From: a virus
Taxonomy: Duplodnaviria; Heunggongvirae; Uroviricota; Caudoviricetes
IMG/VR virus record: IMGVR_UViG_2778261559_000026
Reading direction: 5' to 3' (one strand)
DNA length: 31,691 bases
This document shows positions 9,901-15,900 of this stretch, piece after piece; within the stretch, counting starts at the first letter, position 1; each line of letters begins with the position of its first letter. The position numbers were made by a program.

Positions 9901-12900
9901 AAAATTTATCATATTTTTTAGCGTTTTCTTCGGTGACGTTAACAGATTGATTCTGAATAGCGATCATCGCCTCTTGAGCACTATTATATTTCTCAAGCTG
10001 GCTGGTCATATGGCTTGAATCACTGGCTAAAGATTCCATCATGAACTTGATTTCAGCCATTGATTTTCCGGCTTTCTTCATGTCATAGAACACTTGGATC
10101 GCCGCTTTCATACCACCTTGCGGATCGGTCATGAAGTGAGCATAGTTTTCTAACTTAAGGCCAACCGATTCTAAATCATCGGCAATACCACCACCGTTAG
10201 CCCATGCATCACCCATCTTGTCTAAGGTGTCTTTGTTGATATCACCAAATTTTTCAACTGTTAAGCCAGTGCCAGAAAATTCCTTTTCCAGTCTTTGAAG
10301 GGATTCAATCGATAGTCCGGTCGCCTTAGATACTTCTGAATACTGTTTAACGTATTCCGCGCCAGCTTTAGCGGCTGCAAAAACTGCGGTCGCAACTAAG
10401 CCGATACCACCAGCAGCCAAACCAGCAGAGCCAGCGATCCCACGAAGAGATCCAGTCAAACCAGATAAACCACCGCCAAAATCAATATTACTTGCCTTTT
10501 CAGACAAACTATCTAGAAGGTTAGCGGCTTCATTGGTACTTCTCCTTAGACCTTTATTATCCCCTTCTATTGTTACTATATGTTTTGTCATAAATTACCC
10601 CTTTAACCGCTTCTGAGTTTCTCAAGCAAAGATGGATCAAACATGTTCAGCATTGCCGCTTTACGTTCTTCTTCTTTCTTGCGTGCAATTTCTTCCAGTT
10701 CTTCTTTAGTTTTAAAGAGTTTTTCTTCTCTAATTAATTGGAATTGGCTAGGCTTGAGTTTGCGTGCAGTTTCGCGTGTCATTCCTTGCGAAGTCATATA
10801 CATGGAATATTGCAACATCGCATTCTGCATATCATGAAACGCGGGGCTTTGTGGTTCTAAGTAGGTGTCGAAAATGTATAATTTCCAAAACAGAGTGATT
10901 GGCATATTATCCATTTCATCTTTACTAAGCCCCGATCTCATCATTTGCCGGAAATAGAAATTCAGAAGCGGGTTTACTTTACCTCGTTTTCAATTACTGC
11001 CGGATCTTGCATCAATGACGCTTGAGCAACTAAACCGATTAATTCACTGCGGACGTTAGTATACAGTGCTTTAACTTGTTCCATAGATTCAAATACTGGC
11101 TTACCATCTTCATCTTCAATACAACGAAGAATAGAACGTTCATCACGGTCTTCTTTATCGGTATTGAAAACATGTTCATTAAATTCTTTTACTGACATAG
11201 GGCGAGCATAGAAAGTAAATCCACCGATGGTCAGAGATTCGCGTTTCGGAGAGAGTGCGGCTAACATTTCATTAATATTCATTATTGTTTCCTCTTAAGT
11301 TAATTAGATATGTTTATTTAGAATTGGAAACAAAAAAGCCACCCCGAAGGATGGCTAGATAATATTAGACTTTCTGGAAAACAGCTTGTTTAACCGGAGC
11401 ACCATCTACTACAAAGGTGAAGGTACGGCCTACTACAGCATCCTCACCACCAGTCATGGTAGTTTTAGACAGGAAGCCGTTATAAGCGATATGTACACCA
11501 GATTTTTTCGTAGCATCGATGTAGTAAGCAATTTTAAGCTGTACGCGCTTACCGTCTTCGGTTGCTTTAATCAGTTTTTCGTGTACTTCGTTACCCGGCA
11601 TGTAGTTGATCGAAAGTTCGATATCCGGTACAGACATACGACCAACCAGCTTACGGTTATAAGCACCAGAGAAGTTAGGAACATCGATAGTAGAACGTTC
11701 TACACCAGTTTCCGGGAACGCTGCGCATTCTGGAATTTCCAGATAAGTTTCAGCGTCAAGATCAACGTTAGCTACATCTTCTTGCAGAAACAGACCAACG
11801 AGGCCACCAGAGAAAATATCAAATTTAGTAGTCATTATTCTTTTCCTTCTATTTTTTAAACAATAGGGTACATGCCCGTAATTCTATTTATTTAGTTAAA
11901 TGGGGGTGTTCCCCCCATTTATATCATTTACAGGATTTAATAGCCGCAAGTTCAGCTTTAACAGCTTTCAACTCTTCGTTCATCGCATCATACTTAGTCG
12001 TTAATTCCTGAAAGGCTTTCACGAAAAGAGCATTGATACTAGAAACAGAAATAGTTTTAATTTCTCCTGGATTTTCGGTATCTCCATCGCTGCAAACGTG
12101 CACAGCTTCCGGCATAACTTTTTCCACATCTTGAGCAATGACACCTAATTCGCGTCCAACCACTGTATCATCAGAAAGTGATTTAACTTTATCGTAGGAA
12201 TATACGGTTAAGCTGTTTAATTTATCCAGCGCACCTTCTTCCAATTCTTCCTTGTTGATCTTAAGACGTTCATCAGATCGAATATGCACATCGTTAAAGC
12301 TACCGTTACCCGGCGTGTAAAAGAACCCATCGTGATGGAACTCAAATACAGCTTGAGGGTGTCCGTTATCAGGTGAGTTTTCCGCAGATCCAACACGAAT
12401 AATTGCTTGTCCCCAATTGTTAGGGATACGACGCATACCAAAATCGACGGCAGTTGTATACCCTTGATTGGTGATTAAACTTCTTGCTTTAACAATCGGA
12501 TAATAACAGTCTTGTCCAACATAGCCATGATCGACGAATATTGGCGCTTCCACTCGCCACTGATTACCCCAATCACCTGGTTGACTAGCGGTCCAACGTT
12601 CACCATGAACATATAATCGAGCGTTATTAACATGAACCATTTCGACGCCTTTTGGACTTAATGCAATATCCCCAGCGTTCGTAAGATTTATCGCGGCATT
12701 AGTAGCATAGCTATAGAACGCTAATCCATTATCACCACCGCCTTTACCAATATACCAGTTGTTGTTGTCAGCACACGTACCCAACAAATATACAGACGAA
12801 TCACCACTTTCGGCATTCATGATAATTGCATCAGATCCACGATTAATTTTCATTTTCCCGAAGAAGGTGTTTTTGGTAGTATTATCCCATAGACGTTCAA

Positions 12901-15900
12901 ATTCGGCTAAAAATCCTTTTGAGTCACGAAGACTTAAAACGTTATTTCGACCTGTATTGCTTGCACCCCAATGGACGAGTTCCATATAGTCCATAGATTG
13001 ACGAGAACCAGCTTTAAAGAACAGGTTGTCTTCGAGACGAGTGCTACCATCAATTCCGAGATGCAAACAACGAGCGGTTGCAGTACCACCTAAATACAAT
13101 CCACCGTCCGCAAAATCATAGCTGAATGGTCTGCGATTATTCCAACTACCAAAAGAATCTTTTAAATCGGTAGTAAGAATATGGAAGCTAGAACCATCAT
13201 TGCGTAACATCAAACCATAGTTACCACCTTTGACAGCCAAACGAGCATTTTCAGATAATGCAACTTCGCTATTCATTACAATTTTCTGGCCTCTACCGCC
13301 AGTAATATGTAATTCACCGTCTTCAATCAGGTTTATCGAGTTTTGACCGTTATCGTTCCACCAAATAAAATCTTTGGTTGTTCCATCACCGAAGCCAAAC
13401 CAGCCATTACGAACATCTTGACCAGTGCGATAATCCATGAAATTAAAATGACTTGATTCGTTTGGTCCTCGACGAATATCAATACCAGAATTTCCAGTAA
13501 CACCGCCATCCAATGTTAATTTCTTGACGTGTAACCCGCTCCCAGAAGACAACAATAATTGTTGACCTGAATCTGTACCGCCAGTGGCAAGACGATAATT
13601 CTGGTCATCAACGGTTTCATGCCAGATAGTGGCAGGAGCAGAACTACGGAAGCGACGCAACATCTTTTTGCTGTTAGTTTGTTGTTCGTTCATATGCTCA
13701 ATGTCATATTGGCCTTGATGGTTTCCAGCAAAATTTAACGTCCCACGGTTGCTAAAGTTATTGAACGATGAAATGTTAAGAGCATCAAAAATTTCATCTG
13801 CAACAGGTTTTTCACCACCCAGATATTCAGGAGTATCCAACAGGTTTAAAGAAACACCACCGGAAGAAACTTGATATTCTGCTAAAACAAATCCTGTATG
13901 TGCACCGTAGTAAGCGTAAAGATCGTAATTATCACCATCGGTAGGAATTGCACAAAAATGTTGTTCGTGATACCAGATGCTATAATAAGCATTGAATACA
14001 ACACCTTTCGGGCTATTGTTGCCGCATCGAATCACCAATTCGATAATATTGGCTTGTCCATTCATCCCGACGTTATAACCGTTACCACCAACTAAGCGGA
14101 TCTTAGCACTACGACCGTGTTGCTGTGGCAGTGTTAAACTACCGAGTTTAAACCAACCACCCTCGATCCCAAAATTAAGCGTCTTCTGGAACAGTCGGTC
14201 AATTTCTGCTTTCGAATATGCGCCAATTTCAGCCGGAGTAGGTTTATCGCCTTCATGATACATGCGGTGAGAATATGACAAATTACCTAATTCATCATAG
14301 CCGTATGTTCTTACAGTAGCATGTGGATTAGACCCATAAGTGAACTCAAAGCCACGAGCATGATTAACACCAGATGGATGCGGAACATGCAAGATCATTG
14401 CAATATGACCCGCCAGGTCATTCATGCGGAATGCACCAAAGTAATCAAGATTACGCGCATTTGGATCATCAAAATAGTTTGCGGTCTTAGACAGCAAATA
14501 ACCATCAGTATAAGTGTTTACGTGTTTTTTGATGTACTTGCCATCAGCAGATCCATCGGCTGCATCAATACGGCTTTCTAAGCGTGCCAATTCAGAATCA
14601 GTGTAAACCTTGTTGTTGTCAATTTTGCTATGAATTGCTGTATTTTTGGCTTCAACATCACGGGTTAATGCTGCGACGCTATCCGCTGCCTCTTGCTTAT
14701 TAGCTGCAATCACACCAGTAAGGTTATTGTAGGTGTCAGTTAACTGATTTTCCGCATAGGCTTGATTTGCTGCGATAGTGCGGTCAGTTTCTGCCTTAAT
14801 CAAATCAACTTTGTCATTGATTGCTTTGTGATTGCTTGCGATGGTTGCATCAGTACGGGATTTAATATCATCAACTTTTTTATTGATGCGGGTGTCCAGT
14901 TCCTGAGTTGCTACAGCAGCCGCATTTTTATTAGCGTTGATGGTATCCGACAATTCAGCTTTAACACCAGCAAGATCGGAAGCAGCTTTATTTTTATTAG
15001 CTTCGATTGTCGCGTCGGTTTCGCGTTTAATTACATCAACTTTATTGTTAATTTCTGCATGATTTGCTGCGATAGTAGAATCAGTAGTTTGTTTAATTTC
15101 ATCTACTTTAGCGTGAATATTGCGGTCATTTACTGCAATTGTGCTATCCAATTCTTGTTTGTTAGCATCAACTTTAGATTCTAGTGCCGCGTGAGTTTCA
15201 GGAGAAACAGAGATTTGAACTACTTCATGATCTCGGTCTTTGGTAAAAATAACATGGTCTTTAAGGTTGATTGCTACCTCACCGACCTGTAATTGTTCCG
15301 GCGTTGGTTTTTTGCCAGAAACATTAGTTCGTTTAAATTGGATTGATTGCATCTAATCACCTCACATAAAACAGGAATAAGGGAGGCGTTAACCTCCCCG
15401 CGTCATGTTTTATTTAGAGAAGCAATCAGTATTCCCCGAAGTCGATCCGGTCATGGATAGAAACGGCTTCAATCTCGGCTGGTGTCGGTTTTTCTTCCGT
15501 GGAATACACTTTCACCCATCCAGAATTACCGTCTTTCTGGACTGTGCGAACTCGTAAACGTGGTGCGCCGGAAGCGGTGCAAGTTAATTGCCATCCACCA
15601 TCGTCATTAGGTTGAACGTGAATTAGTGAAGTATCAGCACTAAATGGATTAGATGCGCTCGATCCCTGATAAGTTACGAAACGGTTTCCGGCTAATGCTT
15701 CGCTATCAATCGGACCTATGAATGGGCTAACGCCTGAGCCTACGCCATAATCCCCTTGTCGCAGAATTTTTCCCTCGGTCGCGATACCCCTTGCAAGAAT
15801 CCCGCCATCTGGTTCAAGTTTAAATTCCAGTGTTACCGCTTTGTTATCGCTACCACGGGTTTTATGTGATGTGACGTAAGCATCATAGATGACATAGTAA

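What the first reader, a model, noticed from the sequence alone, without database searches (positions are those of the whole stretch)
11924..15352. 1142-aa fibre with 22-aa repeats and a self-cleaving chaperone domain, encoded between head-completion genes and the major tail gene
The C-terminal ~120 residues match the intramolecular chaperone domain of trimeric fibres and endosialidases (SDERLK... GVIAQDV... AFQEL), and the N-terminal third has about 7 repeats of a 22-residue coiled-coil-like unit. Its position ahead of the major tail gene is unusual for a lambda-like layout and may indicate a neck or collar fibre. A short KPTPAEI-type motif occurs at the fibre N-terminus, mid-region (DKPTPAEIGAY) and at the C-terminus of the adjacent 277-aa protein (EEKPTPAEIEAV).
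Basis: partly seen in the sequence, partly recalled or inferred. Interest (0 to 1): 0.45.

Follow-up and report, generated by a model that had tools for sequence, protein, structure and literature searches.

The report
Prophage fibre docked on tube-like ring
This is a real receptor-binding tail fibre of an E. coli prophage, largely borrowed from T4-like phages, and it probably plugs into a neighbouring tail-tube-like protein through the same joint that T4 uses between two segments of its long tail fibre.

Summary
ORF 11924-15352 (-) encodes a 1142-aa fibre. It has a Peptidase_S74 chaperone domain at residues 1026-1085 (E 2.3e-14) with an S1026/K1031 dyad. A 22-residue repeat spans residues 60-268 (z 9.6). 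The KPTPAEI heptapeptide is shared with the upstream 277-aa protein.

The fibre is a chimera:
- Residues 1-47 match the T4 gp37 N-terminus.
- Residues 49-268 are 20 hendecads with a coiled-coil core pattern.
- Residues 283-1135 are 78% identical to the gp37 distal long-tail-fibre subunit of Krischvirus.

Best reading: the fibre docks on a ring of the tube-like paralogue. Whether that ring sits at the neck or near the tip cannot be settled here. This is a new variant of a known kind, of moderate interest. This copy of the prophage carries a 4.9-kb deletion and is probably defective.

The parts
11924..15352 (-). Fibre gene, 1142 aa including the stop codon
   Evidence: ORF list. Best PHROG match is phrog_1699, long tail fibre distal subunit, E 3.9e-112.
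15212..15352 (-). Fibre residues 1-47: gp37-type N-terminal attachment domain (IQFKR...GEVAINLKD...IFTKD), the proposed 'socket'
   Evidence: 44.7% identical to T4 gp37 residues 4-50, E 2e-10. It is the only such element in the window.
14549..15208 (-). Fibre residues 49-268: 20 hendecads forming a 22-residue super-repeat; predicted trimeric coiled-coil stalk, roughly 33 nm long (my estimate from about 0.15 nm per residue)
   Evidence: Lag-22 identity has z 9.6. Hydrophobic core falls at register positions 2, 5 and 9, with I/N alternating at position 5.
12278..14506 (-). Fibre residues 283-1025: T-even (Krischvirus) gp37-type distal rod and receptor-binding tip. Includes Gp34_trimer at 644-745 and the DKPTPAEIGAY junction motif at residues 369-379 (nt 14216-14248).
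   Evidence: tblastn gives 77.8% identity to KFS-EC gp37. The local alignment pairs fibre 283-1135 with gp37 69-919. Nucleotide identity is 80% over residues 288-1084. Pfam hit.
11927..12277 (-). Fibre residues 1026-1142: S74 intramolecular chaperone with a Ser1026/Lys1031 dyad and a terminal helix; predicted to be cleaved off after trimerisation
   Evidence: Pfam PF13884, E 2.3e-14. The C-terminal region of a solved distal long-tail-fibre subunit (PDB 6f45_A) aligns to residues 1019-1132. SDERLK sits at residue 1026.
15426..16259 (-). 277-aa anchor protein. Residues 1-160 form a tail-tube-fold domain (nt 15780-16259). Residues 161-277 form a fibre-type domain (nt 15429-15779).
15429..15512 (-). 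Anchor residues 250-277 (KVYSTEEKPTPAEIEAVSIHDRIDFGEY-COOH): gp36-type C-terminal connector, the proposed 'plug'
   Evidence: 13 of 28 residues identical to the extreme C-terminus of KFS-EC gp36, E 2e-5. T4 gp36 ends in DFGYY. P258, A265, D273 and G275 are invariant across the family. It is the only such ending in the window.
16269..16691 (-). 140-aa tail terminator
16675..16965 (-). 96-aa FII-like head-tail joining protein
   Evidence: Pfam Phage_attach, E 2.4e-5, just below the curated cut-off.
11365..11835 (-). 156-aa probable major tail tube protein
   Evidence: phrog_158 at E 1.6e-19. Weak hits to lambda-type tail tube families. Lies directly upstream of the G and T chaperone genes. Followed by a terminator-like hairpin at 11337-11356.
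11897..11921 (.). G+C-rich hairpin immediately after the fibre stop codon
   Evidence: Consensus scan and sequence. Function not tested.

Best explanation
The gene encodes a trimeric receptor-binding fibre built from four modules.
1. Residues 1-47 are a gp37-type attachment domain.
2. Residues 49-268 are a coiled-coil stalk of twenty 11-residue turns. Isoleucine and asparagine alternate at one core position, and this alternation creates the 22-residue period.
3. Residues 283-1025 are the distal rod and receptor-binding tip of a T-even (Krischvirus-type) gp37.
4. Residues 1026-1142 are an S74 intramolecular chaperone. By analogy with its family, it helps the three chains fold and then cuts itself off at Ser1026.

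The fibre is held on the particle by the upstream 277-aa protein. That protein is a paralogue of the tail tube protein and would form a ring in the tail. Its C-terminal tail (...KPTPAEIEAV....IDFGEY) matches the C-terminus of gp36, the T4 protein that binds the gp37 N-terminus. So the phage uses the T4 gp36/gp37 joint to hang a fibre on a tube-like ring.

Shown here: the domain identities, the folds, the sequence matches and the conserved gene adjacency. Inferred: the physical docking, the ring's copy number and position, and the self-cleavage.
For: Fibre identity:
- S74 and Gp34_trimer domains.
- phrog_1699 at E 3.9e-112.
- 77.8% amino-acid identity to KFS-EC gp37 over 73% of the query, and 80% nucleotide identity over residues 288-1084.

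Coiled coil:
- Lag-22 identity z 9.6.
- Hydrophobic core at register positions 2, 5 and 9, with I/N alternation at position 5.

Socket:
- Fibre residues 1-47 match T4 gp37 residues 4-50 at 44.7% identity, E 2e-10.

Plug:
- The last 28 residues of the 277-aa protein match the last 28 of KFS-EC gp36, E 2e-5.
- T4 gp36 ends in DFGYY.
- Trimeric gp36 binds the N-terminal region of gp37 (PMC3004832).

Anchor fold:
- The terminator is a separate gene.

Conserved pairing:
- In 8 of 8 gene pairs, a gene ending D[FL]Gx[FYE] is followed at once by a gene starting IQFKR..GE.xIN. The pairs are T4, KFS-EC, this window, DCP80, a metagenome contig, Edwardsiella, and two in Proteus.
- In Proteus the stalk is a separate 198-aa protein that carries a socket at one end and a plug at the other, giving a chain of two joints.
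- Tails ending GE[YF] go with one type of N-terminus and tails ending GTF with another.

Family breadth:
- 18 representative clusters carry the C-domain straight after a roughly 160-aa N-domain, with total lengths of 278-1209 aa. All seven that were read end in a connector-like tail.

Uniqueness:
- The window holds exactly one plug and one socket.
Against: - No direct test of binding was possible, because the structure tool predicts single chains only.
- The C-domain of the 277-aa protein is poorly modelled as a monomer (pLDDT below 50).
- The profile match between that C-domain and fibre residues 330-382 is weak (hhalign probability 18%, E 1.3e-3).
- A hexameric ring offering six tails to trimeric fibres implies a symmetry mismatch that I cannot resolve.
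- In this window the prophage has lost the C-terminal half of its tail tip protein and its lysis genes, so this copy may never assemble a particle.
Confidence: 0.7

Rival explanations
1. Neck or collar fibre. The ring of the 277-aa protein is the first ring under the tail terminator, so the fibres hang from the head-proximal end of the tail like whiskers. This agrees with the best explanation on docking and differs only on location.
Against: Gene order is the only evidence. My length estimate is about 33 nm of stalk plus a gp37-type rod, roughly 80-90 nm in all, against a tail of about 120 nm from the 809-aa tape measure. Neck-anchored fibres would therefore fall short of the tail tip. The lactococcal neck passage proteins use a BppU-like N-domain (PMC6669499), and no such domain was detected here.
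Confidence: 0.4
2. Distal collar, as in T5. The 277-aa ring sits between the last tube ring and the distal tail protein, so the fibres are ordinary side tail fibres near the tail tip.
Against: The T5 p140 gene lies between the tape measure and distal tail protein genes, matching its position in the particle. Here the gene lies upstream of the tube gene. No p132-like collar protein was recognised.
Confidence: 0.25
3. The 277-aa protein is itself the major, or a co-major, tube subunit. The whole tail would then be decorated with connectors or fibres, and the 156-aa protein would have a minor role.
For: The 277-aa N-domain matches true tube proteins best and has the long beta-hairpin typical of them. 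Lactococcal phages do decorate the tube through extensions of the major tail protein (PMC6669499).
Against: The 156-aa protein matches the tube family far better (E 1.6e-19 against 3.1e-9). It sits directly before the G/T chaperone genes. It is followed by a strong terminator-like hairpin, as the capsid gene is. Its metagenomic orthologue has a weak Ig-like C-terminal hit, as many major tail proteins do. Dozens of rings each bearing 1142-aa fibres would be very costly.
Confidence: 0.1
4. The shared motif is only a recombination scar from capture of a T-even gp36-gp37 cassette. The fibre attaches elsewhere, for example at the tail tip, or is not incorporated at all.
For: Fibre modules are exchanged at the DNA level with Krischviruses. 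A second gene in the window also shares 93.5% nucleotide identity with KFS-EC.
Against: The tail of the 277-aa protein is among its most conserved parts, across proteins down to 35% identity. It persists at the end of family members of 278-1209 aa, which argues for selection. The Proteus two-joint chain is hard to explain as scars.
Confidence: 0.1

Closest known systems
T-even distal long tail fibre: gp36 plus gp37 of the S74-bearing type (Krischvirus KFS-EC / RB49; class TC14 in PMC12143355)
   Same: The N-terminal domain, rod, tip and S74 chaperone of gp37 are all present, at 78% identity over residues 283-1135. The partner protein ends in a gp36-type C-terminal tail. The joint is presumably the same as in T4.
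   Different: There is no gp34 or gp35, no contractile tail and no baseplate. A 220-residue coiled coil is inserted after the N-terminal domain. The gp36 role is played by the tail of a tail-tube-fold protein in a lambda-like, non-contractile tail module.
Phage T5 p140 / p132 / pb1 (tube-protein paralogue ring, collar, L-shaped side fibre with S74 chaperone)
   Same: A diverged paralogue of the tube protein is dedicated to fibre anchoring. The fibre carries a C-terminal self-cleaving chaperone.
   Different: In T5 a separate Ig-like dodecamer (p132) links the ring to the fibre. Here the ring protein carries the connector itself. The gene position also differs: after the tape measure gene in T5, before the tube gene here.
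Lactococcal neck passage structure (collar and whiskers of 936 and P335 phages)
   Same: An accessory fibre with a trimeric coiled coil and a distal binding module, possibly at the neck.
   Different: Those proteins anchor through a BppU-like beta-sandwich domain (PMC6669499), not through a tube-fold ring with a gp36-type joint. They bind cell-wall sugars of Gram-positive hosts.
Endosialidase / K1F-type C-terminal intramolecular chaperone (Peptidase_S74)
   Same: HMM match above threshold, an SDxxxK Ser-Lys dyad, and a position at the extreme C-terminus of a trimeric fibre.
   Different: The passenger is a gp37-type fibre rather than a sialidase tailspike.

Membership tests
Peptidase_S74 intramolecular chaperone | Match to the family HMM above the curated threshold | tested here: met
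   PF13884, E 2.3e-14, 53.9 bits against a cut-off of 22, residues 1026-1085 covering profile positions 1-58 of 58.
Peptidase_S74 intramolecular chaperone | Catalytic Ser with Lys five residues downstream, at the start of the domain | tested here: met
   SDERLK at 1026-1031 aligns to profile position 1. That this spacing is the dyad comes from my knowledge of K1F endosialidase and T5 pb1.
Peptidase_S74 intramolecular chaperone | Autoproteolytic release after trimer folding | not testable with these tools
   Needs protein chemistry or virion mass spectrometry.
T-even gp37 distal long tail fibre subunit | Homology across the rod and tip | tested here: met
   77.8% identity over residues 283-1118 to KFS-EC gp37. 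The local alignment extends to residue 1135.
T-even gp37 distal long tail fibre subunit | gp37-type N-terminal domain that receives gp36 | tested here: met
   Residues 1-47 against T4 gp37 residues 4-50: 44.7% identity, E 2e-10.
T-even gp37 distal long tail fibre subunit | Part of a gp34-gp35-gp36-gp37 fibre on a contractile-tail baseplate | tested here: not met
   The surrounding genes form a lambda-like non-contractile tail module: terminator, tube protein, G/T chaperones, tape measure, distal tail protein. No gp34 or gp35 homologue was seen among the scanned genes. So it works like gp37 but is not a T-even long tail fibre in context.
Tail tube protein fold (for the 277-aa protein) | Tube-type beta-sandwich with a long hairpin, recognisable by structure and by profile | tested here: met
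Tail terminator (for the 277-aa protein) | Terminator-type alpha/beta fold | tested here: not met
Neck passage structure / collar-whisker fibres | BppU-like N-terminal collar domain | tested here: not met
   No such domain appears in the Pfam or PHROG results. The N-terminus is gp37-type.
Neck passage structure / collar-whisker fibres | Location at the head-tail junction | not testable with these tools
   Only gene order bears on it.
T5-type fibre collar | Tube-protein paralogue ring plus an Ig-like p132 collar, encoded in the tip module | tested here: inconclusive

The most novel reading that the evidence does not exclude
A widespread but undescribed way of mounting fibres on non-contractile tails. 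A dedicated paralogue of the tail tube protein forms a ring directly beneath the tail terminator. Through a T4 gp36-type plug at its C-terminus, it carries T4-like long fibres at the neck of a lambda-like phage. Interchangeable plug/socket types (GE[YF] versus GTF tails) set the order in which fibre segments join.
Probability: 0.3. Interest if true: 0.65.

Novelty: new variant of a known kind. Interest (0 to 1): 0.5.

Why it matters
How side or neck fibres are fastened to non-contractile tails has been worked out structurally for only a few phages. The T5 structure paper states that anchoring must differ in other siphophages (PMC10038345).

This locus suggests a simple, testable alternative: a tube-protein paralogue that carries a T4-type fibre connector. 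The same joint appears to be reused in series in relatives. That would make it a natural plug-and-socket system for swapping receptor-binding modules, which is useful for host-range engineering. It also explains how a temperate E. coli phage can take a receptor-binding fibre from virulent T4-like phages at 80% DNA identity.

The fibre itself (gp37 type with an S74 chaperone) is a known kind.

Tried and rejected
- The 277-aa protein as tail terminator. Rejected: the 140-aa neighbour has the terminator fold and the 277-aa model matches tube proteins best.
- The 277-aa and 156-aa proteins as recent duplicates. BLASTP shows no significant similarity (15% identity, E 2.5). They are related only at profile and fold level.
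- DNA tandem repeats behind the 22-residue period. None found, so the repeat is old and visible only at the protein level.
- Sequence search of the 277-aa family against solved structures. No hit reached E 0.1; the six weak matches at E up to 10 are unrelated proteins.
- NCBIfam. No family matched the fibre, the anchor, the tube protein or the terminator.
- Close phage relatives of the whole window. None in the phage collection apart from fibre matches. Only DCP80 carries a homologue of the 277-aa protein, and that record looks chimeric, so I used it only for gene-pair comparison.
- The N-terminal KPTPEQL as a third copy of the motif. Rejected: it lies inside the gp37-type N-terminal domain and shares only KPTP.
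- Literature searches for a tube-protein paralogue that anchors fibres outside T5. Nothing found. This is not proof of absence.
- Including the DCP80 sequence in the structure-prediction alignment.
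Full report
**1. What is there**

The minus-strand ORF 11924..15352 encodes 1142 aa. Pfam finds Peptidase_S74 at residues 1026-1085 (E 2.3e-14, above threshold) and Gp34_trimer at 644-745 (E 5.7e-14). PHROGs places the protein with long tail fibre distal subunits (phrog_1699, E 3.9e-112). SDERLK begins at residue 1026. This gives a Ser1026/Lys1031 pair at the spacing I know from the K1F endosialidase and T5 pb1 chaperones.

**2. The repeats**

Over residues 49-268, identity at lag 22 is 27%, against 8.8 +/- 1.9% in shuffles (z 9.6). 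Five units are clear and two are degenerate, with an 11-residue half-unit at 148-158.

The whole stretch stays in an 11-residue register. Hydrophobic residues fall at register positions 2, 5 and 9. Position 5 alternates between isoleucine and asparagine, and this alternation produces the 22-residue period. A 3-4-4 core spacing is the hendecad pattern of coiled coils, and asparagine core layers are typical of trimeric ones (my knowledge). I read this region as a trimeric stalk of about 33 nm.

**3. The fibre is a chimera**

- Residues 283-1118 are 77.8% identical to gp37 of Krischvirus KFS-EC and its relatives. These are T4-like phages of the RB49 group.
- The local alignment pairs fibre 283-1135 with gp37 69-919 of 920. 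Identity is 90-100% across residues 603-922 and lower towards both ends.
- Nucleotide identity is 80% over residues 288-1084, so the exchange is fairly recent.
- The first 47 residues match the T4 gp37 N-terminus at 44.7% identity, E 2e-10.
- Relative to a T-even gp37, the fibre therefore has the same N-terminal domain, rod, tip and chaperone, plus an inserted coiled coil.
- gp37-type fibres that end in an S74 domain instead of the T4 needle are a described class (PMC12143355).

**4. Where the window comes from**

The window matches a prophage inserted in hicB of E. coli O55:H7 DEC5A and of strain FDAARGOS_946. Related elements occur in 61 of 5426 complete E. coli genomes.

The module order is terminase, a 164-aa gene, portal, protease-capsid fusion, a 96-aa FII-like joiner, a 140-aa gene, the 277-aa gene, the fibre, the 156-aa tube gene, the G and T chaperones, the tape measure and the distal tail protein.

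**5. The neighbours**

- Both the 277-aa and the 156-aa proteins hit phrog_158, major tail protein. The 156-aa protein hits it far more strongly.
- The fibre gene is therefore flanked by two tube-fold genes. Neither is the terminator.
- The 156-aa protein is the likelier major tube subunit for three reasons. It precedes the chaperone genes. Like the capsid gene, it is followed by a terminator-like hairpin. Its metagenomic orthologue has a weak Ig-like hit in its C-terminal extension.

**6. The KPTPAEI motif explained**

The 277-aa protein ends ...KVYSTEEKPTPAEIEAVSIHDRIDFGEY. KFS-EC gp36 ends ...ELYHEGHKPTPAEVGAVPLNAVIDFGTF (13 of 28 identical, E 2e-5). T4 gp36 ends ...DSVQDFGYY.

In T4, trimeric gp36 binds the N-terminal region of gp37 (PMC3004832). 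So the neighbour of the fibre carries the gp36 end, and the fibre carries the gp37 start.

The element Y-x3-5-KPT-x3-[IV]-G-A recurs four times in KFS-EC gp36 by pattern search, and a further copy can be read in the printed C-terminus of gp34. It also marks the point after which longer family members insert extra fibre modules. The mid-fibre copy at residues 369-379 is one of these junction elements. The stretch before it aligns weakly with the 277-aa C-domain (BLASTP E 9e-4; hhalign E 1.3e-3).

**7. Comparative support for a joint**

The order terminator, anchor, fibre cassette, tube gene is kept in:
- E. coli EC24, ETEC4085 and ES2;
- Proteus, Edwardsiella and a metagenome contig;
- DCP80.

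The distal parts of the fibres differ widely. They include gp37 plus a gp38-type adhesin, lectin-like ends, and S74 or non-S74 C-termini.

In all eight pairs examined, a gene ending D[FL]Gx[FYE] is followed at once by a gene beginning IQFKR..GE.xIN.

In Proteus the stalk is a separate 198-aa protein with the socket at its start and a DFGTF plug at its end. It is followed by a 675-aa distal fibre with its own socket. Tails ending GE[YF] accompany one N-terminus type and tails ending GTF another. This fits ordered assembly.

An exhaustive search with the C-domain found 18 representative clusters that carry it just after a roughly 160-aa N-domain, in proteins of 278-1209 aa. All seven that were read end in a connector-like tail. 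The 277-aa form is the minimal member of a family made of a tube-fold anchor, a variable proximal rod and a connector. The window contains exactly one plug and one socket.

**8. Mechanism and its limits**

I conclude that the fibre docks on a ring of the 277-aa paralogue through a gp36/gp37-type joint. It folds with the help of its S74 domain and loses that domain by self-cleavage. These three steps are inferred, not shown.

The position of the ring is open. T4 gp3 is a precedent for a tube-fold ring at that end. T5 p140 is a precedent for a distal ring that supports side fibres (PMC10038345).

**9. State of this copy**

Relative to DEC5A, the window lacks 4936 bp at position 3827/3828. The deletion truncates the serine recombinase and the tail tip protein and removes the lysis-region genes. 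The fibre gene is intact, but this prophage copy is probably defective.

**10. Verdict**

The fibre is an ordinary, known kind of protein in an unusual and conserved setting. The attachment scheme appears not to have been described: I found nothing in the literature searches, which is not proof of absence. I rate it a new variant of a known kind, with interest 0.5.

Noticed in passing
window 3827/3828 (compare L002 3595-8532): A 4936-bp deletion relative to the DEC5A prophage. It truncates the serine recombinase (ORF 2537-3949) and the tail tip protein (ORF 3785-5584, only the N-terminal ~585 aa kept). It also removes six small genes, including a D-Ala-D-Ala carboxypeptidase-type lysis gene. 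This copy is probably defective.
   Followed up: yes
window 30323-30707 and 31104-31183 (ORF 30329-31108, +): A second stretch shared with Krischvirus KFS-EC: 93.5% nucleotide identity over 385 nt to the 5' half of hypothetical gene gp149, and 87.5% over 80 nt just downstream. RefSeq annotates the DEC5A copy as a lysozyme inhibitor LprI family protein. This suggests repeated DNA exchange between this prophage group and T4-like phages.
   Followed up: partly
window 6050-6823 (-): A homing-endonuclease-like gene (phrog_314, E 3.8e-25; NUMOD3 in RefSeq) sits inside the tail module, between the DUF2163 tail protein gene and the DUF6950 gene. Some relatives also carry a GIY-YIG nuclease gene in the fibre region.
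   Followed up: no
window 17115-19121 (-): The prohead protease (Peptidase_S78, residues 40-162) and the major capsid protein (residues 410-664) are fused in one 668-aa ORF, joined by a very acidic linker. The fusion is conserved in the relatives.
   Followed up: no
L010 8882-9478 and 9489-11516 (Proteus mirabilis contig): In Proteus the fibre is split in two. A 198-aa protein carries the N-terminal socket, a coiled coil and a DFGTF end. A 675-aa distal fibre with its own socket follows. Together they make a chain of two joints.
   Followed up: yes
L006 2367-3149; L011 12524-13294: Relatives in E. coli ETEC4085 and Edwardsiella carry a gp38-type adhesin gene (GP38 / 'receptor-recognizing protein') after the fibre gene. 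The window has only 88 nt between the fibre and tube genes, so here the fibre tip itself should bind the receptor.
   Followed up: partly
fibre residues 580-758 (window about 13079-13615): The window is 100% identical to DEC5A over 15300-19200 but only 98.9% over 11300-16300. All amino-acid differences between the two fibres cluster in residues 580-758, including small indels. This looks like a recombination patch within the rod.
   Followed up: partly
window 17001-17022, 11337-11356, 15380-15399, 11897-11921: Terminator-like hairpins with T-runs follow the capsid gene and the 156-aa tube gene. Weaker hairpins without T-runs follow the 277-aa gene and the fibre gene. Ten such sites were found in the region, against 4.6 +/- 2.3 in shuffles.
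   Followed up: no
L001 / L012 (GenBank PQ671644, Escherichia phage DCP80): The record is classified as a T4-like Gaprivervirus. It begins with a 22-kb lambda-like head and tail module syntenic with this prophage, and it contains two rIIA genes in opposite orientation. It looks like a chimeric assembly.
   Followed up: partly
L002 669-788 and 36080-36388: In DEC5A the roughly 35-kb element splits the hicB antitoxin gene, while hicA remains intact next to it.
   Followed up: no
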